Of a stretch of DNA of 64,000 bases, positions 5,292 to 34,246 are shown one piece after another (within the stretch, counting starts at the first letter, position 1; each line of letters opens with the position of its first letter). Source of the DNA: an uncultured Clostridia bacterium. Its GTDB lineage: Bacteria; Bacillota; Clostridia; TANB77; CAG-508. The stretch spans positions 82,588-146,587 of the forward strand of contig CAUWGA010000001.1 in the NCBI GenBank assembly GCA_963558245.1, written 5' to 3'. Below the pieces are notes generated by a model that was not told where the DNA came from, did not search any database, and saw only the letters and a program-made list of their open reading frames with translations. Made by a program: the position numbers and the translations under genes.

Positions 5292-6485
5292 TTATTTTAT
5301 TACTGCCTGCTTATTACCATCTGATAATCTTATATTTATAATTTGTTCTTTCTCTAATTCGTTTATACTCTTTACAACTTTTCCATCTTTTTCTATTATT
5401 GAATAACCTCTATAAAGAGTTTTTAGTGGACTTAAAGCATCTAATTTAGAAATTAATTCTATGTAATTACTTCTTTCTTTTTCAATTCTTATTTTTATTA
5501 AGTTTTCAAATTGTTTGATATAATTATCTATTCTTAAATAGTTATCGTTAATTTTTCTTAATGGATCACGAAATACAACACTTGCCATACATTTATCATA
5601 ACGTAATTTCATAATTTCTACTTTTTTTATTAAAGACATTCTTAGTCTATCTTGATAACTATTTATTTTTCTTTTAACTTCATATACGTCTGAAATCGCC
5701 AGCTCTGCTGCCGCTGATGGTGTAGGTGCTCTTAAATCTGCTGTAAAATCTGCTATCGTAAAATCTGTTTCATGACCTACTGCTGATATAATTGGTATTT
5801 CAGAATTGTATATACTATGTGCAACTATTTCTTCATTAAAAGGCCATAAGTCTTCTAACGAACCTCCTCCTCGAGCTAAAATGAGTACATCTGCCAACTT
5901 ATTTTTATTCATATATTCAATTCCTTCTGCAATTTTTTCAGCTGCTCCATCTCCTTGCACAGGCACAGGTAATAAACGAATATATACATTTGGATTTCTT
6001 CTTGTTGAAACATTTATAATATCTCTAATTACAGAACCTGTTTGTGAAGTTAACACTCCTACTACTTTAGGCATAAGAGGTATTTTTTTCTTATGTGTAT
6101 TATCAAAATATCCTTGTGCTTCTAATTTTATTTTTAGTTCCTGATATTTTTTATATAAATCTCCTAGGCCATCTTCTTCCATTATTTGCACATATATTTG
6201 ATAAACTCCATCTCTTTCAAATACCGATACACTTCCCAAAACTATAACTTTCATACCATCTTTAGGCATGAAAGTTAATTTTTGAGCATATGACTTAAAA
6301 CATATACATTTAATTAAAGAGTTTTCATCTTTTAAAGTAAAATACATATGTCCTGTGTAATGATTTTTAAAATTAGATATTTCACCTTTTACTAAAACTT
6401 GGTTTAAATATTCGTCATTTGCAACTTTATCTTTTATATATTTATTTAAATCAGATACTGTAATTGCCATATCTGCATATCTCAT
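5292..6485 (-). CDS. xseA: Exodeoxyribonuclease VII large subunit
   Basis: 397 aa with an N-terminal OB-fold region and ARGGGSLEDLWPFNEE. AAGGAG RBS lies 6 nt upstream, and the gene is tightly packed after nusB. Confidence 0.93.
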   Translation of the reverse strand: MRYADMAITVSDLNKYIKDKVANDEYLNQVLVKGEISNFKNHYTGHMYFTLKDENSLIKCICFKSYAQKLTFMPKDGMKVIVLGSVSVFERDGVYQIYVQIMEEDGLGDLYKKYQELKIKLEAQGYFDNTHKKKIPLMPKVVGVLTSQTGSVIRDIINVSTRRNPNVYIRLLPVPVQGDGAAEKIAEGIEYMNKNKLADVLILARGGGSLEDLWPFNEEIVAHSIYNSEIPIISAVGHETDFTIADFTADLRAPTPSAAAELAISDVYEVKRKINSYQDRLRMSLIKKVEIMKLRYDKCMASVVFRDPLRKINDNYLRIDNYIKQFENLIKIRIEKERSNYIELISKLDALSPLKTLYRGYSIIEKDGKVVKSINELEKEQIINIRLSDGNKQAVIK

Positions 6486-6488
6486 ATT

Positions 6489-6890
6489 TTACTCCTTAAC
6501 CACACTTGCTAAAATTCCATTAACAAAATTTTTAGAAGTATCTTCTCCATATTTCTTAGCTAACTCTACAGCTTCATTTATTACAACTTTATATGGTAAC
6601 TCTTTATATTTAATTTCATATATTGCTAATTTTAATATAACTAAGTCTATTTTAGAAATACGTTCTATTTTCCAATCAGATTTTAAGTTTTTCTCTATAT
6701 TTTCTAAGATTGTATCCTTATGTTGTTCTACTCCTAAAACTGCGTCTTTTAAATATTCAACCGCATTTTTATTCGTAATGTCATTACTTTCTAAATATAG
6801 TTCAACCTGTTCCTCTAAATTTTCATTTTTTTGTATTTCTAAACTATACATTAGTTTAAAAGCTTGCTCTCTTATTTCTGAACGATTCAT
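6489..6890 (-). CDS. nusB: Transcription antitermination factor NusB
   Basis: 133 aa. Has a typical NusB C-terminal half ([12 protein letters not shown]...FVNGIL) and the conserved position upstream of xseA. Confidence 0.92.
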
Positions 6891-9081: not shown

Positions 9082-9705
9082 TTAATTCATTTCGAATACT
9101 TGTATTTTGTGTGTAGCGAGTCCTGTAACCGCTTCAACTGCTTGTATTATGTTGTTTTTTGTTGTTGCATTATTTACTCCTGTCGCTGTAATTATTGCTC
9201 CTTCTATTTTAGGCTGAATTGTTTTTTGTGTAATTGGTGTTTTTTTTCCATTTTCTTCTTGATAAATTATATCTTTTTGAGTGTCTGTTTCTTGTATTTT
9301 TCTATTTCCTCCAGATGTATCGCTTTCTTCAGTCGTACTTACTTTTGAGTTTTCGTTATACATTGCTACTATTTCACTGCTTTCTGAATAGTTTAAACAT
9401 ACTTCAACGTTTCCAACTCCTTGTATCTTAGATAATATATTTTTTAGTTTTTCTTCTAAATTGTTTGAATTTATTGTTTCATTATTTGTATTATTATTTT
9501 CATTTGTAGCCAGTTTTTTTGAACTATCATTAATACCTTGCTGTTTTGTATCCTTTTTTCCATTCCATATTAAATTGATGGCTACTACTGTAATTATTAA
9601 AATAACAACAAAAAATACTAAGTTTTCTATCTTTCTTTTATCATTTCCACTTTGTCCTTCTTCATCGTCATTTGATATTAACTTTTTCAATTTATCTCTA
9701 AACAT
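9082..9705 (-). CDS. spoIIIAG: Stage III sporulation protein AG
   Basis: 207 aa with an N-terminal TM. The C-terminus IEGAIITATG...AVEAVTGLATHKIQVFEM is typical of SpoIIIAG. Overlaps spoIIIAF by 19 nt. Confidence 0.88.
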   Translation of the reverse strand: MFRDKLKKLISNDDEEGQSGNDKRKIENLVFFVVILIITVVAINLIWNGKKDTKQQGINDSSKKLATNENNNTNNETINSNNLEEKLKNILSKIQGVGNVEVCLNYSESSEIVAMYNENSKVSTTEESDTSGGNRKIQETDTQKDIIYQEENGKKTPITQKTIQPKIEGAIITATGVNNATTKNNIIQAVEAVTGLATHKIQVFEMN

Positions 9706-10340
9706 TTTTCTTTCACCCCATATTCTTCTATCAAAAATTTTTTTACATTTTGAATGTCGCTCCTTGATACTTTAGTAGAATTACTTTCCTCTTGAACGTT
9801 TTTCTCACTTTCAGTGTTTTCTTTGTTTATTCTTGTATCTATTTCTTTTATTTTTTGTATTTGTGCTACTATTTTATTTTCTGTTATTTTATTTTGTTCT
9901 CCAGTATTTTCAGTTTCAAGATTCTTAGCTTTTTCTATTTTTAAAGTTATTTTATTTATTGTATTTTCTTCATTTTCACTATTTTTTACTATATTTGCAC
10001 TTACATTACATTTATTTACTTTATATCCTTGATTTTCAATTTTATCTATTATGTTTTTTTCTAATTCTTGTTCATATAAATCCTGTATTCTATTATCCAT
10101 ACTGGTTTGGTTTATAGTTTCGTTTTGAGTATTTATGTAATTCTCTATATCTATAGATGTTAAACTTAGTTTATTTTTATCGTTTATAAACGGAGATATT
10201 ATATTAAATAATATAAATATTCCCAAAATTACTCTTATATATTTTTTTGTTTTGTTATTAGGTAACAACATTTCAAATATTGATACTATAACAATCGTTA
10301 CTCCTAAACTTTTTGCCCATGAGCTTAAAAATTCAATCAT
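9687..10340 (-). CDS. spoIIIAF: Stage III sporulation protein AF
   Basis: 217 aa with two N-terminal TM helices (SWAKSLGVTIVIVSIFEMLLP). Operon position fits. Confidence 0.85.
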   Translation of the reverse strand: MIEFLSSWAKSLGVTIVIVSIFEMLLPNNKTKKYIRVILGIFILFNIISPFINDKNKLSLTSIDIENYINTQNETINQTSMDNRIQDLYEQELEKNIIDKIENQGYKVNKCNVSANIVKNSENEENTINKITLKIEKAKNLETENTGEQNKITENKIVAQIQKIKEIDTRINKENTESEKNVQEESNSTKVSRSDIQNVKKFLIEEYGVKEKCLEIN

Positions 10341-16592: not shown

Positions 16593-17168
16593 TTATTGGT
16601 TTTCATACCATTTTGCAAATTCCTGCATCGCTTGTACTGACCCATCAATTTTTCTTCTATTTTCTCTTTCTTCTAAATCCATTTCAGCTAATGTTTTATT
16701 AAATCCTTTTGGCTTAAATATATACCATAAATCCGACCATTTTTCTTCTCTGTCTAATCCTTGTATTTTTTCTGATAAGTTTCCAGGATGTTTTCCATAA
16801 AAATAATGAATATCTTTCCCATCATGATAAGCTAAACACTCATTAAATGCACATTTTCTGTTTTCTTTTCCTTCCATTAGTTTTAAAATTCCATTTATTC
16901 CTATTGTATCTAATGAAAAATTTACAAATGCTCTAGGAAATCCATTTAACTCTTCAATCCTAAAATCTGTATCTAAAGCTATACAAGGTTTTTTTACTAT
17001 TTCAAAAGCCTCTTTTACTTTTGCAGTTGCTATTTCTTTTATATCATCACTTCTTGTTTCTTCTAATTCATAATTAAATGTACTAAATTTTAAATTTTTA
17101 AAATATTTTTCTGCTGATTTTATTTTTCCTGTATTATGTGTTACAAAAATAATTTCATTCTTATTCAT
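16593..17168 (-). CDS. Ham1/RdgB-like non-canonical purine NTP pyrophosphatase family protein
   Basis: 191 aa. N-terminal IIFVTHNTGKIKSAE and central DTDF...GFPRAF resemble ITPase-family motifs, with an atypical C-terminal extension. Confidence 0.65.
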   Translation of the reverse strand: MNKNEIIFVTHNTGKIKSAEKYFKNLKFSTFNYELEETRSDDIKEIATAKVKEAFEIVKKPCIALDTDFRIEELNGFPRAFVNFSLDTIGINGILKLMEGKENRKCAFNECLAYHDGKDIHYFYGKHPGNLSEKIQGLDREEKWSDLWYIFKPKGFNKTLAEMDLEERENRRKIDGSVQAMQEFAKWYENQ

Positions 17169-17392: not shown

Positions 17393-18031
17393 TTAATCTA
17401 TCTGTTCTAAATTAATCAATTCATTTTTTCTAAAAGTCAACTTTAATAGACATGGTGATTTTATGTTTAATATTGTATTTTGGTTATAGACAAGTTTAAC
17501 ATTTTCATTTACTGTACACCAATTTAATAAAAAGAACTTTATTGAACCTCCATGACTAATTACTGCAATTCTTTTTCCTTCATATTCTTTAAGTATTTTA
17601 TCAAAAAATTTATTCATCCTTTCTCTTGTTTGTTCTGCACTTTCTCCATCAGATGTTCTAAATGTTCTATCTAACAGTTGCTCTTGCGAAGGGTCTCTTG
17701 TACTTTTATCCTTCATAAATTCTCCTAATTCTTTTAAATTTCCTAATTTTCTTTCGCTTAAGTTGTTATCCATATTAAAAGGCAAATTATTTGCTTTCGC
17801 AATATATTTGGCTGTTGCCTTAGCTCTAGTATAGCTACTTGACCATATAATATCTAAATTTTTCAATTCGTCATTTTCACTTATTTTTTTTGCTTGTTCT
17901 TCTCCTTCTACTGATAATATTTCTTTCTCATTAATGATTTGAGGATCTTCATTTGTATTTCTAACACCATTTTCGTCAACAGTTTCAGCATGTCTCACTA
18001 AATATATTATTGTATCATTCACTTTATCCAA
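17393..18031 (-). CDS. Histidine phosphatase (phosphoglycerate mutase-like) family protein
   Basis: 212 aa with motif LVRHAET and a downstream ISHGGSI. Starts at TTG with an AAGGAG RBS. Confidence 0.8.
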   Translation of the reverse strand: MDKVNDTIIYLVRHAETVDENGVRNTNEDPQIINEKEILSVEGEEQAKKISENDELKNLDIIWSSSYTRAKATAKYIAKANNLPFNMDNNLSERKLGNLKELGEFMKDKSTRDPSQEQLLDRTFRTSDGESAEQTRERMNKFFDKILKEYEGKRIAVISHGGSIKFFLLNWCTVNENVKLVYNQNTILNIKSPCLLKLTFRKNELINLEQID

Positions 18032-25750: not shown

Positions 25751-26623
25751 ATGTTGTTCAGTATTATTATACCTACGTTTAATGCAGCTAAAAATATTCG
25801 GAAATGTCTTGATAGTATATTAAATCAAACATTTTCTGATTTTGAAGTTCTTGTCATTAATGACGGTTCTACAGATGAAACTGGAGATATCTTAGAAGAA
25901 TATTCTTCTAAATTTTCTAACATCCGCGTTTTTACTTTTTCTAATAGTGGTGTTGGAATTTCTAGAAGAAGGGGAATTTCACTTGCTCAAGGTGAATATC
26001 TAATTTTTGTTGATTCAGATGATTCTATTAACTCTGGACTATTATACGAATTGTACAATACAATATCTTCTTTCGAATGTCACCTAGATGTTATTCGTTA
26101 TCAATGTGAAATTGTTAATGATAATATTAATAAAGATCATCAAAGATACAATTTTTTTAATACTAAGGAATTGCTTAGTGGTCTTGATGCTTTAAAAAGT
26201 TGGTCTGTATCTGGAAAAAAATATGCTGTATATTGGTTGTTCTGCTTCAGAAAAACTGTTTTTACTAATTTATTATTCGTACCTGATTTAAAATGCTACG
26301 AAGATGTTGCTTTAATTCCATTACTAATAGCAAGTTCTAAATATGTTGTAACAATTCCTTATGTTGGTTACAACTATAGTTATGGTAATGCTTTAAGTCT
26401 TACAAATACTAAAACAAGATCTGCTGAACGTTCCAGAGCTTATGATTTTTTTGCAGCATATGATTTTGCTGTTCACAATTTTATTAAACTGGATAATATT
26501 ACAACTTCTGACATTGCATTTTTTATTAGTGATTATAATAAAAGGCTTATTGGCAAATTTAATTCACTTGATAAAAAATTACAAGAAGAATTTAAACGAA
26601 TGTTAGCTTCTAGAGTAAATTAA
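25751..26623 (+). CDS. Glycosyltransferase family 2
   Basis: 290 aa. Begins FSIIIPTFNAAKNIRKCLDSILNQTFSDFEVLVINDGSTDETG and has a DSDD motif. Confidence 0.9.
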   Translation: MLFSIIIPTFNAAKNIRKCLDSILNQTFSDFEVLVINDGSTDETGDILEEYSSKFSNIRVFTFSNSGVGISRRRGISLAQGEYLIFVDSDDSINSGLLYELYNTISSFECHLDVIRYQCEIVNDNINKDHQRYNFFNTKELLSGLDALKSWSVSGKKYAVYWLFCFRKTVFTNLLFVPDLKCYEDVALIPLLIASSKYVVTIPYVGYNYSYGNALSLTNTKTRSAERSRAYDFFAAYDFAVHNFIKLDNITTSDIAFFISDYNKRLIGKFNSLDKKLQEEFKRMLASRVN

Positions 26624-26877: not shown

Positions 26878-28119
26878 ATGTTATATTTATTTTATTTAAT
26901 AATATTTATAGAAATACTAACTATTTTATATAACTTACTTAAATTTATAATATTTAGAATAAAAAGAAATCATAATTCTAAATCAAATATTTGTAACAGG
27001 CAGGCATACGAGTTGAATATACTTATTCCTTGTTTTGAAGAAACAAAAATTATAGAACAAACATTGAAACATTTTCGACACATTATTAATAAATTTCCCA
27101 ATATTAATGTATATGTTATAACTACACAAAAAGAAGATTCAAATATAAAATCTTCTTCTAAAATTTCTACATATGATTATTTGAATAATTTAGAGTTTTT
27201 TAATTCTAAAAACTTTAACATTATCCATTATCCTAATATTTCTGGTATGATGGCTGACCAATTAAATTACGGGATTCAAACAATTTTAAAAAATTCTAAA
27301 TTTCCGCAAGATAGAATATATTTTTCTATCTACAATGCTGATAGTAATCCTGATTTTTCTACCTTTACAGAAATTAATACCGTAATAAATAATAATAAAT
27401 TTCCAAAAATTATTCAACAATATAGTAATTATTTTTCAAATTATAATAACCAAAACTTTATTATGAAAGGTTTTTCTATATATCAAACTGCATTTGAGAT
27501 TAGAAATGGTATTATAAATAATAAAGTTTCACCATTATTATATTCACACGTTGTAGGACATGGATTAACTATTAGAGCTGATTATATTAATAATATAAAT
27601 GGATTTAATACTAACTTTTGGTGTGAAGACATTTTTCTTACAGGTTTATTGTTTAATAATTCTGAACATATTTTACCACTATATTCTTTAGATAATGCTG
27701 AAAATCCAACAAAACTTACTACTCAAATAATTCAAAATGCTGTATGGTTTAAAACTGCTTTTAATCATTTCAATATTTTTAAAGATATTAAAAACAGTTA
27801 TAAAATAACCTCAAAAGGATTTTTATGGCTAATTCACGAATTCAGAGCTTCATTAGTGTGGTTATTTATGCCTATATTTTTAATTTTTAGCTTTATATAT
27901 CCTATTTTTATACAGAATTTAAAAATGCTAATATTAGCTTTAGTTACTTATTTAATTTTTGTGTTTACAAATTATATGTTAAATTTAATTGTAGTAAATG
28001 TAAAAAGATTTAGTAAATATATAAAAAATTACTTTTCTCTCGCATTTGCCGTTTTGTTTACAGGATTAGGACCTTTATACTCTTTCTTTTTAAAAGAAAA
28101 AGTTAAAACAGAACGCTAA
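26878..28119 (+). CDS. Membrane-embedded glycosyltransferase (GT2-like) with N- and C-terminal TM helices
   Basis: 413 aa. Has an N-terminal TM, a GT-A-like core (ILIPCFEE..., YNADSNPD) and QNAVW in place of the QxxRW motif. Several TM helices follow at the C-terminus. Confidence 0.65.
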   Translation: MLYLFYLIIFIEILTILYNLLKFIIFRIKRNHNSKSNICNRQAYELNILIPCFEETKIIEQTLKHFRHIINKFPNINVYVITTQKEDSNIKSSSKISTYDYLNNLEFFNSKNFNIIHYPNISGMMADQLNYGIQTILKNSKFPQDRIYFSIYNADSNPDFSTFTEINTVINNNKFPKIIQQYSNYFSNYNNQNFIMKGFSIYQTAFEIRNGIINNKVSPLLYSHVVGHGLTIRADYINNINGFNTNFWCEDIFLTGLLFNNSEHILPLYSLDNAENPTKLTTQIIQNAVWFKTAFNHFNIFKDIKNSYKITSKGFLWLIHEFRASLVWLFMPIFLIFSFIYPIFIQNLKMLILALVTYLIFVFTNYMLNLIVVNVKRFSKYIKNYFSLAFAVLFTGLGPLYSFFLKEKVKTER

Positions 28120-28161
28120 ATATTTTATTGCTAGTAATTTAGAATTATCTATATCAATATA

Positions 28162-28276
28162 AAAAGCTTTTGTATTTAATAATTTTCACGAATTGTGAGT
28201 ACATTTAGAAAATATTTAAATATATTTATATTTTCTAAATTGAGATAACAAAAAATCTTTGAATACAAAAGCTTTT
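28162..28276. repeat. Nested inverted repeats between convergent genes
   Basis: Outer arms are aaaagcttttgtatt (28162-28176) and aatacaaaagctttt (28262-28276), 15/15. Inner arms are tttagaaaatat (28204-28215) and atattttctaaa (28228-28239), 12/12. Confidence 0.8.
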
Positions 28277-28364
28277 AAATCAAATTATTTTAGTATATTA
28301 AAATGAATTATTCTATTTATGCTAATTAATAATAAATAATTAAATATTCAACACGAACCATCAA

Positions 28365-29240
28365 TTATATATGCCAGTTTTTTATAATATCTTTACTAAT
28401 ATTTAAATTATCATATCCTGTTCCTAATTTTCTATCCTTTTTTCTTTCTCCGTGACAGTCTGAACCTCCTGACATTAATAAATTATTATCTTTACAGTAT
28501 AATTTTAAAAATTCCATTTGCTCTTTTGTAAACGAGCTATGATAAACTTCTATTCCATCTATCAAATTTTTTTTAGTTATTTCATCAAGTAAATTTATAT
28601 AATTGTCTAATTTATATTTATATAAATGTGCTAAAAAGATTTTTCCATTATACTTATGTATTAATTTATTAAAAAATTCTAATGTTGGCATTTGTTTTGA
28701 AAAATCTCTATATAACGGAAACTTTTTATCTATTGTGCAGGTTCTAAAAAAGTTTTCTTTGCTTTCCCATTCTTTTTCTCTGAATAGCTTTTTATTTTCT
28801 TTGCATTTTACTATACTATCATATATTACATCTACTGGATATTCACAATCTGGATTATATTTTAAATTATCTTCTATTTTTATTCTATTTTTTCTGCATA
28901 ATTGAACTAACTCATTAAATTCTTCGATTAATCTCATTTTGTTTTTTTCTGGAGTATAGTAGTTTTCCAAAAAGTTTTGAATTGGTTTTACCTCAAAACC
29001 GTATGCTAATATTTCTATTTTTATACCATTATATGTACAATTTAATTCTACTCCTTGTATTAATTTGCCTTTATAAATTTCTTTTAATTCTGGATTTTGT
29101 TCAATTTCAATATAAGATTTAGCTGTATCATGGTCTGTAATTGAAAAAACTTCTAGTCCCATTTTTTCTGCTTTTTCTAACATTTCTTTTGTTGTCCATG
29201 TGCCATCAGAATTTGTTGTATGTACATGCAAATCAATCAT
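28365..29240 (-). CDS. PHP-domain phosphoesterase (TrpH/YciV-like)
   Basis: 291 aa. Begins MIDLHVHTTNSDGT..., then SITDHDT, with C-terminal GGSDCHG. Overlaps the upstream kinase gene by 8 nt. Confidence 0.85.
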   Translation of the reverse strand: MIDLHVHTTNSDGTWTTKEMLEKAEKMGLEVFSITDHDTAKSYIEIEQNPELKEIYKGKLIQGVELNCTYNGIKIEILAYGFEVKPIQNFLENYYTPEKNKMRLIEEFNELVQLCRKNRIKIEDNLKYNPDCEYPVDVIYDSIVKCKENKKLFREKEWESKENFFRTCTIDKKFPLYRDFSKQMPTLEFFNKLIHKYNGKIFLAHLYKYKLDNYINLLDEITKKNLIDGIEVYHSSFTKEQMEFLKLYCKDNNLLMSGGSDCHGERKKDRKLGTGYDNLNISKDIIKNWHI

Positions 29241-29910
29241 CTGCTATATCCCTTTCTTTTTCTCTTAAATTTAACAATATTTTTGCTTCCTTCATTACTT
29301 CTTCTTTACTTTTTTGATTTGTATCAATATGCAAAAATTTGTCTCTATTTTGTTCTGCAATTATACCAAAGAATTCTATTTGTTTATCAATTAATTCTTT
29401 ACTAATCCAATCTTCCTGAGATAATTCTTGTCCTAATTCGATTTGTCTAATTCTATTTCTTTTTACAATCTCTTTATGTTCAGCTTGAAGCCATATATGT
29501 TTATCTGGAAAATTTATTTTTTGTTCTTGCACTTTTTGTACAAATTTATTATATAATTCTTCAGCATTATCATAAATTCCTGACCATATATTGATATCGT
29601 TAAATGAATATGCAACAGATAAAATTTCTAGTACACTTCTATCCATAACTACCGTTTTGTTTCCTTTAGATAAGTTATTTGCTTCTTTTAATCTATCATA
29701 TTCTAATTCAAAGAAAAATATTTGATTTTCTTTTTCTTCTTTTAAAGTTTTAGGTATAGGTGGAATCTTAGGATATTTTTCAGGATGCTTCTTTGCAAAT
29801 TGACTAGCACCTGGAATAACTATAATATCTTCCATATTTTGTGCTAAATTATTACATAATGTAGTTTTCCCAGCATTTGAAGTTCCATCTATTACAATAA
29901 TTCTTCCCAT
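29233..29910 (-). CDS. P-loop (deoxy)nucleoside/nucleotide kinase-like protein
   Basis: 225 aa with Walker A IDGTSNAGKTT and a DRS motif (VVMDRSVLE), as in dNK/dNMP kinase folds. Confidence 0.65.
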   Translation of the reverse strand: MGRIIVIDGTSNAGKTTLCNNLAQNMEDIIVIPGASQFAKKHPEKYPKIPPIPKTLKEEKENQIFFFELEYDRLKEANNLSKGNKTVVMDRSVLEILSVAYSFNDINIWSGIYDNAEELYNKFVQKVQEQKINFPDKHIWLQAEHKEIVKRNRIRQIELGQELSQEDWISKELIDKQIEFFGIIAEQNRDKFLHIDTNQKSKEEVMKEAKILLNLREKERDIADD

Positions 29911-29939
29911 TCTTTTCCCCTTTCCTAACTTTTTAGTTT

Positions 29940-30371
29940 CTAATTCTCTATATCTTTTAGCATTTTTTCTAGTTCTTCTAAGTTCTTTGCTATCTTAAAA
30001 TCCAAACACCCACTAATCATTAAATTATCATCTCCTGTATAGTCTAATGCCCTTGTGTCTGTTTTAAATCCAATAGCTTTTATTCCCCAAGCATACGCCA
30101 TACCAAGTTCTACACATCCGCCCTCATCTGGAACTCTACCATTTAAATCAAAAATTAATAAATCTGAATTTTTTATACATTCCACATCTCCTTCAAATAT
30201 TTTTTTGTTTATCTCTAATTTATTATTTTCGTTCATCATTTCATATGATAATCCTGATTCATCTTGTGGTAAATAAACTTCATATCCCTTACTTTCTAAC
30301 CATTTTTTCATTTCTGAATTTCTTTTTAATTCCATATCATTAAATAATGGTGCTGCATAATATATTTTCAT
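29940..30371 (-). CDS. Nucleoside 2-deoxyribosyltransferase family protein
   Basis: 143 aa. Begins MKIYYAAPLFN... and carries a catalytic-Glu context DEGGCVELGMAYAWG typical of the NDT/Rcl fold. Confidence 0.8.
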   Translation of the reverse strand: MKIYYAAPLFNDMELKRNSEMKKWLESKGYEVYLPQDESGLSYEMMNENNKLEINKKIFEGDVECIKNSDLLIFDLNGRVPDEGGCVELGMAYAWGIKAIGFKTDTRALDYTGDDNLMISGCLDFKIAKNLEELEKMLKDIEN

Positions 30372-30488
30372 TTTTTGCTTTTTCCTTTCTTTACATGTTT
30401 ATTATATGTTATTTATTTTTGCTTATCATTTATTATATTGCATTTCTGTGCTCACTTTTAATAAACAATATCTACTTTGACATAATTT

Positions 30489-31157
30489 TTAAAAAATCTT
30501 ATATTTTATTTCATTATCAAAAGTATCTATTTCTTCATTTTTCTTTATCAAATTAACTACTTTATATGTTATAGGAGTTAATACTACTTCTACTAAAACT
30601 TTTAATACATAAATATTTAGTATTAAACTAAATATTTCTTGTAGATTTAAAACACCAATAAATACTATAGGAACAAATAATATCGTATCTAGACCTTCTC
30701 CTATTAAAGTTGAAACAATAGTTCTTAGAGCTAAATATTTTCCTTTTGTTTTTATTTTTATTTTAGATAAAACCATTGCATTCGTAAAATTTCCTACTAA
30801 AAATGATATAAATGATGCAATTAATATTCGTGGTGTACTTCCTAAGATATTTACAAAATCATTTTGCAATGTAAATGATTCATCTGCTGGAAGCCATATT
30901 GAAACTCCAAATATTGTTACCATTACTAAATTACAAAAAAATGACAACCATATTACTAATTTTGCTTTGTTAAATCCATACACTTCTGTAAATATATCAT
31001 TTAAAATATATGTTATTGGGAATAACATATCTGCTGCTGTAAATATTAGTCCAAATACATTTATAGTTTTAACTGTAATAATATTTGATATTAATAAAAA
31101 TGTAATATTAATGCCAAATAATATTACAAATATTTTTGAATATGTTTGTTTTTTCAT
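30489..31157 (-). CDS. yhhQ: YhhQ/Vut1 family 7-deazapurine (queuosine precursor) transporter
   Basis: 222 aa and polytopic. Has the signature FPITYILNDIFTEVYG. Its start overlaps the upstream gene's stop (ATGA). Confidence 0.85.
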   Translation of the reverse strand: MKKQTYSKIFVILFGINITFLLISNIITVKTINVFGLIFTAADMLFPITYILNDIFTEVYGFNKAKLVIWLSFFCNLVMVTIFGVSIWLPADESFTLQNDFVNILGSTPRILIASFISFLVGNFTNAMVLSKIKIKTKGKYLALRTIVSTLIGEGLDTILFVPIVFIGVLNLQEIFSLILNIYVLKVLVEVVLTPITYKVVNLIKKNEEIDTFDNEIKYKIF

Positions 31158-31792
31158 TTTATTTTTTTCACTACTTCCTTTTCTATTATCTTTATATATT
31201 TTTCATTAAATCCTCTTTTAATAAAAAATTCTTTTCCATAATTAGCATCAAGTAAATCAAATATTGCAAATCGTATTCTTTTATTAAAGTATAAATCTAT
31301 TGATAATCTATGTGCACCATCAATAATTTCTCCATTTTTTGTTATCGGTATAATAGTTTTATTTGTTCCTGTTTGTTTTATGCTGTTAATTAAGTTGTTA
31401 AATTTATTTATAAATTCTTCTTTTCCTTTTTTATTTCCATCTGGTTCTAAAAAATTGTTAAAACTCTTTATATGTTCTAAATATATTTCTTTGGCTAAAT
31501 CATAATTTTTATTTTCTATATATGATTTTACATAATAGTATTTTATAAAAACATCATATCTATATTGGCTTATTAGATTAATTGGAGAAGTCTCATATAT
31601 TCTTACTTTTGGCCTTTTTTTCAAAAGTGACATTATATAATCATTTTTTATCAAGTTCTTTAGTTCTTCGTATTTTATTGTTTCTATATACTTAGACATT
31701 TTTATAGGATTATTTTTTTCTTTTTTATTTTCGTCTTTAAGTTGTTCAAATTTTATAATCCCCATGCCTGGTATTTCAATTACTTCTTCCAT
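31154..31792 (-). CDS. Hypothetical protein with a ParB/Srx-fold motif
   Basis: 212 aa. The C-terminal segment IIPITKNGEIIDGAHRLS matches the DGxHR core of ParB N-terminal/sulfiredoxin-fold domains. Translationally coupled to yhhQ. Confidence 0.55.
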   Translation of the reverse strand: MEEVIEIPGMGIIKFEQLKDENKKEKNNPIKMSKYIETIKYEELKNLIKNDYIMSLLKKRPKVRIYETSPINLISQYRYDVFIKYYYVKSYIENKNYDLAKEIYLEHIKSFNNFLEPDGNKKGKEEFINKFNNLINSIKQTGTNKTIIPITKNGEIIDGAHRLSIDLYFNKRIRFAIFDLLDANYGKEFFIKRGFNEKYIKIIEKEVVKKIK

Positions 31793-31880
31793 ATTTAATC
31801 TAATTCCTTTCTAAAAACATTATTCATGTTAGAAAATAATTATAGTTAATTAAATTTTAATATTATATATTATAACATAC

Positions 31881-31912
31881 AAAATATAATAAGAGCAAAA
31901 TATTTTGCCCTT
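31881..31912 (-). terminator. Probable terminator after the P-type ATPase gene
   Basis: Minus strand reads aagggcaaaa-ta-ttttgctctt (with one G-U pair), followed by attatatttt. Confidence 0.55.
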
Positions 31913-31924
31913 AACTTTAAATTT

Positions 31925-34246
31925 TTAAACAATTTGTTTATTTTTATATACTTTTCTTTTTATATGTATGGTTAAATAACTAATTATTGCTAAAACTATA
32001 ACCACTATAATTTCTGCTCCTGTTAAAGCTGATAGTTTTAGTAAATTATGGCATATCAATGCTAGTACAAAAAATCCTATTGTTGTTGTAGTAAACAAAA
32101 ATATACGCATTTTATTAAATGGTTTACAAACTTCTTCAACTGCTAAAATACTAACAAATCCTATTAAAATATACATCATTGTTGTTAGTTGATTTTGTGG
32201 TATTTGTATTATTTTTCCTGATATTGTTAATGTAATTATATTAAAAATAATTGCAATTGCAAATGGTAAAGCATTTGTGAGTGCTTTCACTAAAAAAGAA
32301 CCTGTCACCGGTGTTTTGTTCTTTTCAAATGTTATGAAGAAAGATGTGTAACCTTCTATTATTAAATCTATTAATGTTATCTGTATAGGTATAAATGGGA
32401 ATTCCATATTTGTTATAATACACAATAATGATAGTAATACTGAATAAATAGTTTTTATGAAAAATATTCTAGCTACTTTAGTTATATTATTTACAACCCT
32501 TCTTCCTTCCATTAGTACATCTTTTAACACACTAAAATCTGGATTTAACAATACAATTTTTGAAACTTGTTTTGCTGCATCACTTGCATCTGGTAATGTT
32601 ATACTACAATCTGATTCACGAAGTGCAATAACATCATTTACTCCATCTCCTGTCATAGCTACTTTATGTCCTTTGGCCTGTAAAGCTTTTATTATTATAC
32701 TTTTTTGATGTGGTAATACCCTTGCAAAAATACTATATCTATCAACTAAATTAACAATTTCTGCATCAGTACTTATTGTAGATAAATCTATATATGATTC
32801 ATAATCTTTTAAACCTGCTCTTTTAGCTATGTTAGAAACTGTTAAAGGATTATCACCAGATATAATTTTTACATCTATTCCTTGGTTTTTGAAATATCCT
32901 AACATCTCTTTAGCATTTTTTCTTAAGGGGTCTTCTAACGTTATAATAGCTACTACTTCTAAATTAGACAGCCTATCTTCTGATATTTCTTCTTTTGAAT
33001 ACGCTACTCCTAATACTCTTTTTCCATTTTTTTGTAACTCTACTATTTTTTCTGGCATCTCGTCATCACTTTTTGCAAATAATTTTTCTGGTGCTCCAAC
33101 TATAATTGACCCTTCTTTTTTAAATGATATTGAACTCCATTTTCTTTCAGATGAAAATGATATATTACATGATTTTTCATAAGTAGTTTTTCCATCAAAA
33201 TGCTCTTTCATTGCTTTAAATGTTGAATTTGTATCATCCATACCATTAACAAATGCTTCCATCATATTATTAAATGGCTTTGGTAATATTTTTTCATTGT
33301 ATATTTCTATTTCTGATACTGACATTTTTCCATTTGTAATAGTTCCTGTTTTGTCTAAACAAATTGTGTCTATATGTGCTAATGCTTCTATACTATATGA
33401 TTCTTGAACTAACACTTCTTTTTTTGCAAGTTTTATTACTCCTGATTCTAATGCTATTGTTATTAAAAGTACCAATCCTTTAGGTAACATACCTAATAGC
33501 GCTGCTGATGTTGCTATAACTGCTTGTGTAATAGTTGACTCTCTAAAGAAAAATGCTTGTATAAATAATATTATTCCTACTGGTATAATTACAAAACTTG
33601 TAAACTTAGTAACTCTTTTCATAGAGTTTAATAACTCAGAATTATTTTCTTTTTCTTGTTTTGTTGCATTTAATATTTGGCTTGCAAAATTGTCATCTCC
33701 AACTTTTTCCACTATCGCATAGCATCTTCCACTCACTATGTAACTTCCAGATAATAACTTGTCCTCATAACTTTTTACTATTGAGTCTGATTCACCTGTC
33801 AACAATGATTCATTTACTTCTACCTCTCCTTGTATAACATAAGAGTCTGAAGGTATTTGATCTCCTTGTTTTAAAAGAATTGTATCTCCCAATACAACTT
33901 CATCTATTTCGATTTCAATTTGTTTTCCATCTCTAATTACTATTGTTTTAGATGCTGTTAAAATTGACAATTTTTTAACCAAATTTCTTCCATGTATTTC
34001 CTGTATTATTCCTATTAATACATTTACAATAATTATTGCAAAGAAAAAAGTATTAGTATAGGCCTTTACCATAACTAAAGCTATAGCTATAATAAGATTA
34101 TATAAATTAAATAATGTGAATACATTATCTCGTATAATTTGCCAGTTTGTTTTTAATTTATCATTATTCCTTTTATTTACTTTTCCTTCCTTTATTCTTT
34201 CTTGAACTTCATTTTTAGATAATCCTTCAATCTTTTTTTCTCCCAT
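31925..34246 (-). CDS. Cation-translocating P-type ATPase (HAD-IC, type II-like)
   Basis: 773 aa with TGESD, the phosphorylation site DKTGTITNG and the hinge MTGDGVNDVIAL. Eight to ten TM helices. Confidence 0.88.
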   Translation of the reverse strand: MGEKKIEGLSKNEVQERIKEGKVNKRNNDKLKTNWQIIRDNVFTLFNLYNLIIAIALVMVKAYTNTFFFAIIIVNVLIGIIQEIHGRNLVKKLSILTASKTIVIRDGKQIEIEIDEVVLGDTILLKQGDQIPSDSYVIQGEVEVNESLLTGESDSIVKSYEDKLLSGSYIVSGRCYAIVEKVGDDNFASQILNATKQEKENNSELLNSMKRVTKFTSFVIIPVGIILFIQAFFFRESTITQAVIATSAALLGMLPKGLVLLITIALESGVIKLAKKEVLVQESYSIEALAHIDTICLDKTGTITNGKMSVSEIEIYNEKILPKPFNNMMEAFVNGMDDTNSTFKAMKEHFDGKTTYEKSCNISFSSERKWSSISFKKEGSIIVGAPEKLFAKSDDEMPEKIVELQKNGKRVLGVAYSKEEISEDRLSNLEVVAIITLEDPLRKNAKEMLGYFKNQGIDVKIISGDNPLTVSNIAKRAGLKDYESYIDLSTISTDAEIVNLVDRYSIFARVLPHQKSIIIKALQAKGHKVAMTGDGVNDVIALRESDCSITLPDASDAAKQVSKIVLLNPDFSVLKDVLMEGRRVVNNITKVARIFFIKTIYSVLLSLLCIITNMEFPFIPIQITLIDLIIEGYTSFFITFEKNKTPVTGSFLVKALTNALPFAIAIIFNIITLTISGKIIQIPQNQLTTMMYILIGFVSILAVEEVCKPFNKMRIFLFTTTTIGFFVLALICHNLLKLSALTGAEIIVVIVLAIISYLTIHIKRKVYKNKQIV

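What the first reader, a model, noticed from the sequence alone, without database searches (positions are those of the whole stretch)
30489..31792. ParB/Srx-fold protein translationally coupled to a YhhQ 7-deazapurine transporter
The 212-aa ORF carries the DGxHR core of ParB-N/sulfiredoxin-fold domains (IIPITKNGEIIDGAHRLS). Its stop overlaps the yhhQ start (ATGA).

YhhQ/Vut1 proteins import preQ0/preQ1-type 7-deazaguanine bases. In the dpd 7-deazaguanine DNA-modification system, a ParB-like ATPase (DpdB) partners the DNA transglycosylase DpdA.

I do not know of a described pairing of a ParB-fold protein with the base importer. No tgt or dpdA-like gene is present in the window. With the three downstream nucleoside-metabolism genes, this may be an undescribed 7-deazapurine or nucleobase salvage or modification module.
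Basis: inference. Interest (0 to 1): 0.6.

Follow-up and report, generated by a model that had tools for sequence, protein, structure and literature searches.

The report
ParB-like protein in glycan-synthase module
The small ParB/sulfiredoxin-like protein and the YhhQ-type base importer are real and joined. They belong to an undescribed, patchily inherited six-gene module built around a hyaluronan-synthase-like membrane sugar polymerase, and nothing ties that module to queuosine or 7-deazaguanine DNA chemistry.

Summary
On the minus strand, a 212-aa ORF (31154-31792) overlaps a Vut_1/YhhQ gene (30489-31157) by ATGA. The ORF carries an invariant DGxHR motif. Its confident model finds only ParB/Srx proteins in the PDB, though weakly (Z up to 4.6), and no Pfam or NCBIfam model matches it.

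Across 20+ loci the constant partners of this protein are a hyaluronan/cellulose-synthase-like membrane GT2 (here convergent, 26878-28119) and a thymidylate-kinase-like P-loop kinase, plus a phosphatase (PHP or His_Phos_1). YhhQ and a canonical nucleoside 2'-deoxyribosyltransferase are an optional add-on, missing from a second module type.

More distant relatives of the domain are fused to GT2, FkbM and GT10 enzymes in glycan loci. The module is accessory: 6 of 74 congeneric species carry it, and it sits in at least four genomic contexts. By contrast, tgt is in 76 of 76 congeners. No dpdA-like gene and no preQ1 riboswitch was found.

Best reading: a nucleotide-dependent phosphotransfer or nucleotide-handling helper of a synthase-made surface polymer. 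The chemistry is unknown.

The scan reached the same conclusion for this operon in another genome (e1-1261823).

The parts
31154..31792 (-). 212-aa ParB/Srx-fold protein (P0001). It is a stand-alone member of an uncatalogued domain family. Invariant residues are D80, K84, Y104, H107, K121, H161 and R162, with the DGAHR motif at 158-162.
   Evidence: ORF and translation. No Pfam or NCBIfam family. 1277 representative relatives. Invariant columns. AF2 pLDDT 94.7. Only ParB/Srx-superfamily structural hits.
30489..31157 (-). 222-aa Vut_1/YhhQ-family membrane transporter. Its start overlaps the ParB-like gene's stop (ATGA at 31154-31157).
   Evidence: PF02592 1.5e-46 and TIGR00697 123.8 bits, above its cut-off; the E. 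coli-type equivalog NF008406 scores only 46 of 252 bits. It is the only Vut_1 gene in the genome.
29940..30371 (-). 143-aa nucleoside 2'-deoxyribosyltransferase with the full catalytic signature. It is the most conserved protein of the module (82-96% identity across type 1 loci of the window's own lineage; 69-74% in the two divergent loci).
   Evidence: PF05014 5e-21. Best PDB match is DpNDT 7o62, 2.3e-17. Y4, D62, D82, E88, N116 and M118 correspond to DpNDT Tyr16, Asp74, Asp94, Glu100, Asn127 and Met129 (alignment read against PMC12372993). Identities.
29233..29910 (-). 225-aa P-loop kinase of the dNK/thymidylate-kinase type. It has a Walker A (GTSNAGKTT), a DRS motif and an Arg-rich lid (RNRIR).
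   Evidence: PF01712 4e-08, PF02223 3.5e-05, TIGR00041 5.7e-08, all far below equivalog cut-offs. Invariant columns. Profile against PDB: full-length matches to thymidylate/uridylate kinases at about 1e-4. Orthologue in type 2 modules, 34% identity.
28365..29240 (-). 291-aa PHP-domain phosphoesterase of the TrpH/YciV type. It overlaps the kinase gene by 8 nt.
   Evidence: PF02811 7.4e-09. NCBIfam RNase RNM 4.7e-24 and 3',5'-nucleoside bisphosphate phosphatase 5.4e-20, both below their cut-offs. PDB 3e0f 2.7e-14.
26878..28119 (+). 413-aa membrane GT2 of the processive-synthase type, convergent with the operon. It is the constant partner of the ParB-like gene in every module type. The motif QNAVW replaces QxxRW.
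   Evidence: Orthologues at 37-39% identity lie next to the ParB-like gene in L013 and L018. Census. AF2 pLDDT 89. Foldseek: Xenopus hyaluronan synthase 9.8e-11; Chlorella virus hyaluronan synthase TMq 0.70-0.71; BcsA; chitin synthases. Invariants D155, E250, D251, Q286, N287, W290.
28162..28276 (.). Nested inverted repeats in the convergent gap between the PHP gene and the GT2 gene. Probably a shared bidirectional terminator.
   Evidence: Outer arms 28162-28186 / 28252-28276 (88% complementary); inner arms 28203-28215 / 28228-28240 (100%). Function is inferred.
31890..31913 (-). Terminator-like hairpin after the upstream P-type ATPase gene. It marks the 5' boundary of the operon.
   Evidence: This is the only terminator-like site found in 28000-32100, against 0.3 expected from shuffles.

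Best explanation
The 212-aa protein is not a partition protein and is not a DpdB-like partner of a DNA transglycosylase. It is a stand-alone member of a large, uncatalogued branch of the ParB/sulfiredoxin fold that is dedicated to glycan biosynthesis.

In this genome it is one of six genes of an accessory module. The invariable core of that module is:
(i) this protein;
(ii) a hyaluronan/cellulose-synthase-like membrane GT2 that polymerises and exports a sugar chain;
(iii) a thymidylate-kinase-like P-loop kinase;
(iv) a phosphatase (PHP here, His_Phos_1 elsewhere).

The YhhQ-type importer and a canonical nucleoside 2'-deoxyribosyltransferase are an optional front end. They bring in a base and put it on deoxyribose.

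Shown: the fold, the gene set, its conservation, its patchy inheritance, and its independence from tgt.

Inferred: the ParB-like protein uses its invariant His-Arg phosphate-binding loop, with an Asp/Lys/Tyr/His pocket in a helical insert, to bind an NTP. It then transfers a phosphoryl or nucleotidyl group to the polymer or to its nucleotide-activated precursor. This would follow the ParB/Srx-fold kinases SerK, SbnI and sulfiredoxin. The kinase and phosphatase would make and recycle the nucleotide part.

The substrate, the polymer and the imported base are unknown.
For: Fold:
- AF2 pLDDT 94.7.
- Every PDB entry with Z>=2 in the second look is ParB/Srx superfamily. SerK and SbnI appear in the wide search.
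- BFVD top hits are named ParB/Sulfiredoxin.

Enzyme-like conservation:
- Seven invariant polar residues across 50 sequences at 23-51% identity.

Glycan link:
- Relatives carry the domain between FkbM, GT10 and GT2 domains: P0136, P0137, P0141, P0149, P0155, P0138.
- The Atlas names a sister cluster 'WbfN protein family'.

Module census (tblastn of the six window proteins):
- The ParB-like gene, GT2 and kinase co-occur in all 10 GTDB loci that have enough flank, and in 6 metagenome locus types.
- Type 2 loci (L013/14, L038-40, L042) lack Vut_1 and NDT.
- In L018 the ParB-like gene is coupled to the GT2.

GT2 identity:
- Foldseek E 1e-9 to 1e-11 and TMq up to 0.71 to hyaluronan synthases, then BcsA and chitin synthases.

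Accessory nature:
- Found in 6/74 species of the genus, 10/175 of the family and 12/301 of the order.
- At least four different flanking contexts. One lies between a YabG fragment and two serine recombinases.

Independence from queuosine:
- tgt is in 76/76 congeners.
- Module-type Vut_1 is in only 3 of the 76 sampled.
- No riboswitch was found.
Against: - The structural similarity to ParB/Srx is weak (Z<=4.6, Foldseek E>=0.1 in PDB) and covers only about 80-100 residues. No sequence model links the families.
- No activity, ligand or polymer has been observed.
- Catalysis rather than regulation is inferred only from residue conservation and domain fusions.
- A canonical deoxyribosyltransferase and a base importer have no obvious place in polysaccharide synthesis.
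- In this genome the module's Vut_1 is the only recognisable queuosine-precursor importer, so a queuosine role cannot be excluded.
- In one species the Vut_1 gene is deleted and the ParB-like gene is a pseudogene, while the other four genes are intact. This hints that those two may work as a pair.
Confidence: 0.5

Rival explanations
1. One reading: a 7-deazapurine salvage or modification module. YhhQ imports preQ0/preQ1. The NDT puts it on deoxyribose and the kinase phosphorylates it. The ParB-like protein plays a DpdB-like ATPase role, either to modify DNA or to feed tRNA queuosine.
For: - Vut_1 passes the TIGR00697 'queuosine precursor transporter' cut-off.
- The genome has tgt, queA and queH but no queD, queF, queG or QueT, a queC match too weak and partial to count, and only this one Vut_1.
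- The NDT is catalytically intact.
- Vut_1 and the ParB-like gene decayed together in G290.
Against: - No DpdA/TGT paralogue exists in the genome.
- P0001 matches no NCBIfam or Pfam family.
- No preQ1 riboswitch was found in ten loci.
- tgt is universal in the genus, while the module and its Vut_1 are rare.
- Type 2 modules keep the ParB-like gene without Vut_1 or NDT.
- This reading gives no role to the always-present membrane synthase.
Confidence: 0.12
2. The ParB-like protein is a nucleotide-gated regulatory switch of the synthase, as ParB, Noc and KorB are CTP switches and as c-di-GMP receptors gate BcsA and PgaCD. The kinase and phosphatase would set the level of the signalling nucleotide.
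For: - The nearest solved folds include the CTP-binding ParB, Noc and KorB.
- Processive GT2 synthases are commonly nucleotide-gated (established knowledge).
- The phosphoesterase is interchangeable between PHP and His_Phos_1, as expected for a generic signal-removing step.
Against: - The same domain is fused to non-processive GT2, FkbM and GT10 enzymes of O-antigen-type loci, where gating is not expected.
- Seven invariant polar residues, including Asp, Tyr and His in an insert, look like a substrate pocket.
- No dimerisation or membrane-binding module of ParB or Noc is present.
Confidence: 0.17
3. Two unrelated units lie side by side. One is an ordinary base and deoxynucleoside salvage operon (YhhQ, NDT, kinase, PHP) for a small-genome gut anaerobe. 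The other is a glycan pair (ParB-like gene plus GT2).
For: - NDT plus a dNK-like kinase is a classical deoxynucleoside salvage pair.
- The genome is small (1.44 Mb).
- A 117-nt gap with promoter-like hexamers separates Vut_1 from NDT.
- L018 splits the genes into two convergent units.
Against: - The kinase and a phosphatase stay with the ParB-like gene and GT2 even when NDT and Vut_1 are absent.
- All six genes move together through four genomic contexts.
- This NDT type is found almost only with the module: 3 of 399 class genomes, two of them module carriers.
- A housekeeping salvage role does not fit presence in 6 of 74 congeners.
Confidence: 0.13
4. The module is cargo of a mobile element, with an anti-phage or element-maintenance role. 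ParB-like domains and nucleotide-modifying enzymes are common in defence islands.
For: - Inheritance is patchy.
- In L006-L008 the module lies between a YabG fragment and two serine recombinases, and in L013 next to a recombinase.
- The kinase has weak PADLOC hits: PDC-M51B 4.5e-05 and VakA 7e-04.
Against: - The other five proteins have no PADLOC match.
- P0001 has no match in 50,697 phage records.
- In the window and in L009 and L011 there is no recombinase nearby.
- A channel-forming polysaccharide synthase is not a known defence effector.
Confidence: 0.05

Closest known systems
Sulfiredoxin and the free serine kinases SerK/SbnI (ParB/Srx-fold phosphotransferases)
   Same: - Single-domain ParB/Srx core, with a phosphate-binding loop at the N-terminus of a helix (Srx GCHR; here DGAHR, with H161 and R162 invariant).
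- They are among the best structural matches: 6ky4 Z 4.5 over 82 residues, 5x0b Z 3.5, 5ujd Z 2.9.
- No DNA-binding domain.
   Different: - No detectable sequence homology.
- About 60 residues of extra helices (79-141) carry five of the seven invariant residues.
- An N-terminal beta-hairpin region is present.
- Ala replaces the Srx Cys.
- The genomic context is glycan synthesis, not redox repair or siderophore and cysteine metabolism.
ParB/Noc/KorB CTP-dependent clamps, and DpdB of the dpd 7-deazaguanine DNA system
   Same: Same superfamily core. CDP/CTP-bound ParB and KorB are top structural hits: 6sdk Z 4.6, 7bm8 Z 4.5, 8qa8 Z 4.0.
   Different: - No helix-turn-helix or dimerisation domain.
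- No PF02195 match.
- No parA.
- No DpdA/TGT paralogue anywhere in the genome.
- The conserved neighbours are a membrane GT2 and a kinase.
WbdD-type chain terminators (kinase plus methyltransferase capping of O-polysaccharides)
   Same: Relatives of the domain are fused to FkbM methyltransferases and glycosyltransferases in large glycan-locus proteins. This matches the logic of a phosphate (and methyl) decoration placed on a glycan.
   Different: - WbdD uses a eukaryotic-like protein-kinase fold, not ParB/Srx.
- It works with an ABC-transporter pathway.
- Here the protein stands alone, there is no methyltransferase, and the partner is a synthase-type GT2.
- The comparison rests on my own knowledge of WbdD and was not tested here.
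Synthase-dependent exopolysaccharide systems (hyaluronan synthase, BcsA, PgaC/IcaA, NodC, chitin synthase)
   Same: - The 413-aa partner has the same overall fold: TMq 0.70-0.71 to Chlorella virus hyaluronan synthase, and E 9.8e-11 to Xenopus hyaluronan synthase 1.
- It has an N-terminal TM helix, a GT-A core and C-terminal TM helices.
- It has invariant D155, ED250-251 and Q..W.
   Different: - QNAVW lacks the Arg of QxxRW in all 14 orthologues.
- No PilZ, PgaD or BcsB-type partner is present.
- The accessory genes are nucleoside and nucleotide enzymes, which no described synthase system has.
YhhQ/QPTR queuosine-precursor transporters (COG1738; Zallot et al. 2017, PMC5372724)
   Same: Same Pfam and TIGRFAM family, with scores above the cut-offs.
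   Different: - The gene is not next to queuosine genes and not behind a preQ1 riboswitch.
- It travels with the module rather than with tgt.
- It scores 46 bits against a 252-bit cut-off for the E. coli YhhQ equivalog.
- Other Vut_1 genes in the genus are only 29-36% identical.
DpNDT, type II nucleoside 2'-deoxyribosyltransferase of Desulfotalea psychrophila (PDB 7o62; PMC12372993)
   Same: It is the best solved relative of the third gene (2.3e-17 over 138 residues). All six catalytic residues, including the NLM motif, are present.
   Different: Described NDTs are stand-alone salvage enzymes. This one is locked into an operon with a base importer, a ParB-like protein and a polysaccharide synthase.

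Membership tests
ParB N-terminal domain / sulfiredoxin superfamily (PF02195 clan) | Sequence match to the ParB_N/ParBc profile | tested here: not met
   There is no PF02195 hit for P0001 at E<=10, and none for any of the 50 family members at E<=1. The only hint is phrog_2159 'ParB-like partition protein' at E=0.063 over residues 132-165.
ParB N-terminal domain / sulfiredoxin superfamily (PF02195 clan) | Shared three-dimensional core | tested here: inconclusive
   All 16 PDB entries with Z>=2 in the second look, and six of the top ten in the wide search, are ParB/Srx proteins. However Z<=4.6, rmsd is 3.4-7.5 A and only 79-105 residues align. Foldseek PDB E>=0.12. BFVD hits named ParB/Sulfiredoxin have E>=8e-3.
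ParB N-terminal domain / sulfiredoxin superfamily (PF02195 clan) | Phosphate-binding motif at a strand-loop-helix junction (ParB GxxRxxA, Srx GCHR) | tested here: met
   DGAHR lies at 158-162, directly after strand 148-151 and at the start of helix 160-169. G159 is nearly invariant; H161 and R162 are invariant in 50 sequences. Equivalence to the Srx and ParB loop is inferred from position, not from a superposition that I inspected.
Chromosomal/plasmid ParB (partition protein) | Helix-turn-helix DNA-binding and C-terminal dimerisation domains; parA partner | tested here: not met
   The protein has 212 residues with no further domain. The neighbours are a transporter and metabolic enzymes.
DpdB of the dpd 7-deazaguanine DNA modification system | Encoded with a DpdA (TGT-like DNA transglycosylase) and preQ0 synthesis genes | tested here: not met
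   PF01702 finds only tgt beside queA, plus a spurious hit in an LRR protein. No real queC, and no queD or queF.
YhhQ/QPTR queuosine-precursor transporter (PF02592, TIGR00697) | Profile match above the curated cut-off | tested here: met
   PF02592 scores 158.9 bits (cut-off 27.2). TIGR00697 scores 123.8 bits (cut-off 50.95). NF008406, the E. coli-type equivalog, scores 46 of 252 bits and is not met.
YhhQ/QPTR queuosine-precursor transporter (PF02592, TIGR00697) | Genomic or regulatory link to queuosine genes (clustering, preQ1 riboswitch), as used to define the function in PMC5372724 | tested here: not met
   No Rfam match was found upstream in the window or in nine related loci. tgt and queA lie on another contig. 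The gene co-distributes with the module, not with tgt.
YhhQ/QPTR queuosine-precursor transporter (PF02592, TIGR00697) | Transport of preQ0, preQ1 or queuine | not testable with these tools
   This needs an uptake or queuosine-tRNA complementation assay.
Nucleoside 2'-deoxyribosyltransferase (PF05014) | Profile match and the catalytic set Tyr, Asp, Asp, Glu nucleophile and NLM | tested here: met
   PF05014 scores 75.5 bits (cut-off 28.8). Y4, D62, D82, E88 and N116-L117-M118 correspond to DpNDT Tyr16, Asp74, Asp94, Glu100, Asn127 and Met129. The NLM register needs a one-residue shift of the HMMER alignment.
Processive membrane GT2 synthases (hyaluronan, cellulose, chitin, PNAG) | Fold: GT-A domain packed on a bundle of TM helices | tested here: met
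   Foldseek E 1e-9 to 1e-11, probability 1.00 and TMq up to 0.71 over about 445 columns to hyaluronan synthases, followed by BcsA and chitin synthases. Model pLDDT is 89.
Processive membrane GT2 synthases (hyaluronan, cellulose, chitin, PNAG) | Signature D, DxD, (T)ED and QxxRW motifs | tested here: not met
   D155 (NADS), E250-D251 (CEDI), Q286 and W290 are invariant. The Arg of QxxRW is absent: QNAVW here, QNANW in L013 and QNSVW in L018. This counts against strict membership, not against a similar mode of action.
dNK / thymidylate kinase family | Walker A, (D/E)RS motif, Arg-rich lid; profile above the curated cut-off | tested here: inconclusive
   The motifs are present and invariant: G9, S11, N12, G14, K15, T16, T17; R91 with nearly invariant D90; R151, N152, R155. 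PF01712 scores 33.7 bits (cut-off 27), but TIGR00041 scores 32.7 of 83.25 bits. The best full-length PDB relatives are thymidylate/uridylate kinases at E about 1e-4.
PHP phosphoesterases of the TrpH/YciV (RNase AM, pAp phosphatase) type | PHP profile match; equivalog-level match | tested here: inconclusive
   PF02811 scores 36.6 bits (cut-off 26.4). NF047791 scores 85 of 375 bits and NF041577 scores 72 of 400 bits. PDB 3e0f matches at 2.7e-14 in two stretches.

The most novel reading that the evidence does not exclude
The module builds its own private nucleotide carrier for a polysaccharide synthase.

Steps proposed:
1. A base is imported by the YhhQ-type porter.
2. The NDT places it on deoxyribose.
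3. The ParB/Srx-fold protein, acting as a new kind of nucleoside or sugar kinase, and the thymidylate-kinase-like enzyme phosphorylate it in turn.
4. The resulting non-canonical (deoxy- or deaza-) nucleotide-sugar feeds a hyaluronan-synthase-like enzyme. The lost QxxRW arginine of that enzyme would reflect the unusual donor.
5. The phosphatase recycles the spent nucleotide.
Probability: 0.08. Interest if true: 0.85.

Novelty: new variant of a known kind. Interest (0 to 1): 0.55.

Why it matters
- It would place the ParB/sulfiredoxin fold, known from chromosome partition, redox repair and two serine kinases, in cell-surface glycan synthesis. The branch is large (1277 representative clusters at 50% identity) and has no Pfam or NCBIfam model.
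- The module joins a channel-forming polysaccharide synthase to a deoxyribosyltransferase, a nucleotide-type kinase, a phosphoesterase and a base importer. No described synthase system has this combination, so an unknown step in polymer decoration or donor supply is likely.
- It warns against annotating every Vut_1/TIGR00697 gene as a queuosine-precursor transporter. In this genus the gene travels with the module, while tgt is universal.
- The carriers are small-genome human-gut Clostridia, and the module moves between genomic sites. One of those sites lies between a yabG fragment and two serine recombinases. The product may therefore be a variable surface or spore-associated glycan relevant to host or phage interactions.

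Tried and rejected
- **Complex prediction.** GT2 (alignment A2) plus the ParB-like protein (A1) gave no answer: ipSAE 0.00 in two runs. This is neither support nor evidence against binding.
- **Sequence searches of the PDB.** P0001 alone and the profile of A1 returned only chance-level hits, to kinesin and aldolase. The A2 profile also found nothing. Only fold comparison was informative.
- **Phage records.** tblastn of P0001 found no match.
- **PADLOC.** Nothing except weak P-loop hits for the kinase.
- **Rfam.** No riboswitch was found in the window at the gathering thresholds, in 28000-32200 at E<=5, in nine module loci, or in three loci with other Vut_1 genes.
- **Upstream regions.** An alignment of eight type 1 loci showed no conserved promoter or operator. 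The sigma-70 scan was no better than shuffles.
- **Vut_1 outgroup.** The word-index search with the Vut_1 protein listed only module-type sequences at 69% identity or more, so it gave no outgroup for a specificity comparison.
- **Short relatives.** Contexts of three short relatives (P0148, P0176, P0186) were on contigs of 1.4-4.9 kb. They were uninformative, or looked like split multidomain genes.
- **Literature.** Searches for WbfN, and for ParB/Srx with polysaccharide and kinase terms, found nothing relevant.
- **Another NDT.** A 44%-identical NDT in another Clostridia family (G740) has none of the other module genes nearby.
- **Qng1 (PF10343).** The search rang in no control genome, so its negative result says nothing.
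- **NDK-like and nucleotidyltransferase-like segments.** The ~480-aa relatives seem to carry an NDK-like middle part and a Pol-beta-type G[GS]x9-13DxD motif. I read this by eye only. Pfam did not confirm it.
Full report
**1. What is in the sequence**

The finding's two genes lie on the minus strand. A 212-aa ORF occupies 31154-31792 and a 222-aa ORF occupies 30489-31157. The first gene's stop and the second gene's start share ATGA at 31154-31157. The peptide IIPITKNGEIIDGAHRLS is residues 147-164 of the 212-aa protein.

The second gene is a clear Vut_1/YhhQ-family member. PF02592 scores 1.5e-46. TIGR00697 scores 123.8 bits against a cut-off of 50.95. The E. coli-type equivalog NF008406 scores only 46 of 252 bits.

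Three more genes follow on the same strand:
- a nucleoside 2'-deoxyribosyltransferase, 29940-30371;
- a dNK/thymidylate-kinase-like P-loop protein, 29233-29910;
- a PHP phosphoesterase, 28365-29240.

A terminator-like hairpin at 31913-31890 separates the operon from the upstream P-type ATPase gene. Nested inverted repeats at 28162-28276 fill the gap to a convergent 413-aa gene at 26878-28119.

**2. The 212-aa protein**

No Pfam, NCBIfam or PADLOC model matches it. The only hints are phrog_2159 'ParB-like partition protein' at E=0.063 and DUF7440 at E=0.021.

An exhaustive HMMER search of 1.84 billion cluster representatives found 1277 relatives at E<=0.001. In a 50-sequence alignment at 23-51% identity to the query, D80, K84, Y104, H107, K121, H161 and R162 are invariant. 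None of the 50 members matches a Pfam family.

The AlphaFold2 model is confident, with pLDDT 94.7 and pTM 0.91. The structure searches gave:
- Foldseek against the PDB: top hits are the pNOB8 ParB N-domain, sulfiredoxin, ParB, Noc and KorB, all at E>=0.12.
- The independent wide alignment: sulfiredoxin 6ky4 ranks first (Z 4.5, 82 residues, 3.4 A), followed by KorB, pNOB8 ParB, Atu1540, the free serine kinase SerK and PadC, with sulfiredoxin (1yzs) and SbnI at ranks 9-10 after two unrelated RbcX chains.
- The second look: all 16 entries with Z>=2 belong to this superfamily.
- Viral models: the top hits are named ParB/Sulfiredoxin.

The core is therefore ParB/Srx-like, but very divergent. It carries a helical insert (about residues 79-141) that holds five of the seven invariant residues, and an N-terminal beta-hairpin region. 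DGAHR sits at a strand-to-helix junction, where Srx has GCHR and ParB has its arginine box. That positional equivalence is my inference.

**3. What the relatives look like**

Beyond the close orthologues, the domain sits inside glycan-biosynthesis proteins:
- between FkbM methyltransferase and GT2 domains (P0136, which also has GT10, and P0149);
- in front of a GT2 (P0137);
- in front of FkbM (P0141, P0155);
- inside 2000-residue proteins with several GT2 domains (P0138).

A common ~480-aa form is placed by the protein atlas next to a cluster named 'WbfN protein family', and next to viral clusters. By eye, its C-terminal two-thirds carry an NDK-like segment and a Pol-beta-type nucleotidyltransferase motif. 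Pfam did not confirm this.

**4. The gene neighbourhood is a six-gene module**

I ran tblastn with the six window proteins against all fetched loci and inspected the called genes. Two layouts emerged.

- **Type 1:** ParB-like, Vut_1, NDT, kinase, PHP, plus the 413-aa gene in convergent orientation. This is the layout in the window, in seven metagenome loci and in GTDB genomes G242, G286, G016, G129, G203 and G290. G226 shows only the ParB-like/Vut_1 pair on a contig that carries nothing more of the module.
- **Type 2:** ParB-like, the 413-aa homologue (33-37% identity), the kinase homologue (34%), then a His_Phos_1 phosphatase. It has no Vut_1 and no NDT. It occurs in L013/14, G185, G181, G262 and as a second copy in G286.

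In L018 two tandem ParB-like genes are followed directly by the 413-aa gene. A NUDIX/Vut_1/NDT/kinase/PHP unit converges on them.

Every stand-alone homologue with enough flanking DNA has the 413-aa gene and the kinase within 4 kb. Vut_1 is present only in type 1. The conserved partners of the ParB-like protein are therefore the 413-aa protein and the kinase, not YhhQ.

**5. The partners**

*The 413-aa protein.* It models well (pLDDT 89). It matches hyaluronan synthases: Xenopus HAS1 at E 9.8e-11, and Chlorella virus HAS at TMq 0.70-0.71 over about 445 columns. Bacterial cellulose synthase BcsA and chitin synthases come next. It is a processive, channel-forming GT2. Its orthologues keep D155, E250-D251, Q286 and W290, but all lack the arginine of QxxRW; the motif reads QNAVW, QNANW or QNSVW.

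*The NDT.* It is 2.3e-17 from DpNDT (7o62). It carries all six catalytic residues listed for that enzyme in PMC12372993.

*The kinase.* It has an invariant Walker A, an invariant Arg91 in the DRS motif (Asp90 nearly invariant) and an invariant Arg-rich lid. Its profile aligns full-length to thymidylate/uridylate kinases at E about 1e-4.

*The PHP protein.* It resembles TrpH/YciV-type phosphoesterases, but scores below the equivalog cut-offs.

**6. Distribution**

The ParB-like gene was found in 6 of 74 sampled species of the same genus, 10 of 175 of the family and 12 of 301 genomes of the order, counting the window's own.

The module sits in at least four different flanking contexts:
- after a P-type ATPase, in the window and in G242;
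- between a 42-aa YabG (Peptidase_U57) fragment and two serine recombinases, in L006-8;
- next to a bactofilin/DUF8173 gene, in L009;
- after an ABC transporter, in L011.

In G290 the ParB-like gene carries three stops and Vut_1 is cleanly missing, while the other four genes are intact. This NDT type was found in only 3 of 399 sampled genomes of the class, two of them module carriers. The module is accessory and probably mobile.

**7. The queuosine question**

The genome (1.44 Mb, 96% complete) has tgt and queA side by side, and queH. No queD, queF, queG or QueT was found. The only QueC-family hit is marginal (24 bits over 60 of 210 profile positions), so I do not count it as queC. The genome therefore needs imported preQ1, and the module's Vut_1 is its only recognisable importer.

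Several results nevertheless argue against a queuosine role for the module:
- tgt is in 76 of 76 congeners.
- Vut_1 of any kind is in only 7 of 76.
- Of those seven, only G000, G203 and G308 have the module-type gene, and in each it sits next to the ParB-like gene.
- The others are 29-36% identical paralogues or weak hits.

Most congeners therefore feed tgt through some other transporter, and the module-type Vut_1 follows the module. No preQ1 riboswitch was found in the window or in nine other module loci. The only second TGT-like hit in the genome lies in an LRR protein, so there is no DpdA.

**8. Interpretation**

*Shown:*
- a ParB/Srx-like, enzyme-like protein family without a database model;
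- its fusion or adjacency to glycan enzymes;
- a six-gene module with a constant core of ParB-like protein, HAS-like synthase, kinase and phosphatase;
- accessory inheritance;
- no link to tgt, DpdA or riboswitches.

*Inferred:* the ParB-like protein binds an NTP through H161/R162. It transfers a phosphoryl or nucleotidyl group to the synthase's polymer or to its activated precursor, as the ParB/Srx-fold enzymes Srx, SerK and SbnI do for their substrates. The kinase and phosphatase would make and recycle the nucleotide moiety. Vut_1 plus NDT would supply a base as a deoxynucleoside in type 1 modules.

I put about 0.8 on the structural claim that this is a module around a synthase and not a queuosine or dpd system. 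I put about 0.35-0.4 on catalytic phosphotransfer as the mechanism.

*Rivals:*
- a nucleotide-gated regulatory switch of the synthase (0.17);
- two unrelated units side by side (0.13);
- a mobile-element or defence function (0.05).

What remains unexplained is why a canonical deoxyribosyltransferase and a base importer should serve a polysaccharide synthase, and why that synthase lacks the diphosphate-binding arginine.

**9. Earlier notes of this scan**

A follow-up on another genome (e1-1261823) reached the same conclusion for the same operon. I reproduced its core claims independently here. Other notes describe two things:
- the type 2 gene set as cargo of a recombinase element that splits yabG (e1-4729627, e1-4813525); I saw the YabG fragment and recombinases in L006;
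- the three-domain ParB-like/NDK-like/nucleotidyltransferase cassette in glycan loci (e1-2685547 and others).

These were leads, not evidence.

Noticed in passing
L037 (G290:C1:1071000-1090500), about 9340-10030: In one species of the same family, the ParB-like gene is a pseudogene with three in-frame stops. The Vut_1 gene is cleanly missing: only about 75 bp remain between the NDT gene and the ParB-like remnant. NDT, kinase, PHP and GT2 look intact.
   Followed up: partly
L006-L008, 5523-5651 and 10914-12639: Here the six-gene module lies between a 42-aa fragment of the sporulation protease YabG (Peptidase_U57) and two large serine recombinase genes. In these gut metagenome contigs it therefore looks like cargo of a yabG-splitting element. 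The window's own copy is not in such an element.
   Followed up: partly
G000:C6:5067-5705 (outside the window): The genome's own yabG match covers only profile positions 84-276 and has a TAA inside. The gene may be truncated or interrupted.
   Followed up: no
L034 (G016:C31), 5586-6828: The GT2 orthologue is hit in two pieces that abut with a one-base frame change. This is either a frameshift or an assembly error.
   Followed up: no
window 25751-26623 (+): A soluble GT2 gene lies just upstream of the membrane GT2 on the same strand. It is not conserved with the module: tblastn found no copy of it next to the module in any related locus, including L032 from G242, the closest relative. It is probably not part of the module.
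   Followed up: partly
window 30372-30488: A 117-nt gap separates Vut_1 from NDT and holds two promoter-like hexamer pairs on the minus strand. In this AT-rich DNA that is no better than chance, but an internal promoter for the NDT-kinase-PHP genes is possible.
   Followed up: no
window 17393-18031 (-) and 16593-17168 (-): A His_Phos_1 phosphatase and a Ham1-type NTP pyrophosphatase lie about 10 kb from the module. They are housekeeping-looking, and I did not check whether they are linked to it.
   Followed up: no
L013 9077-9451: Type 2 modules carry an extra 124-aa gene after the His_Phos_1 gene. It has a weak match (E 0.0045) to the undecaprenyl-diphosphate-synthase family.
   Followed up: no
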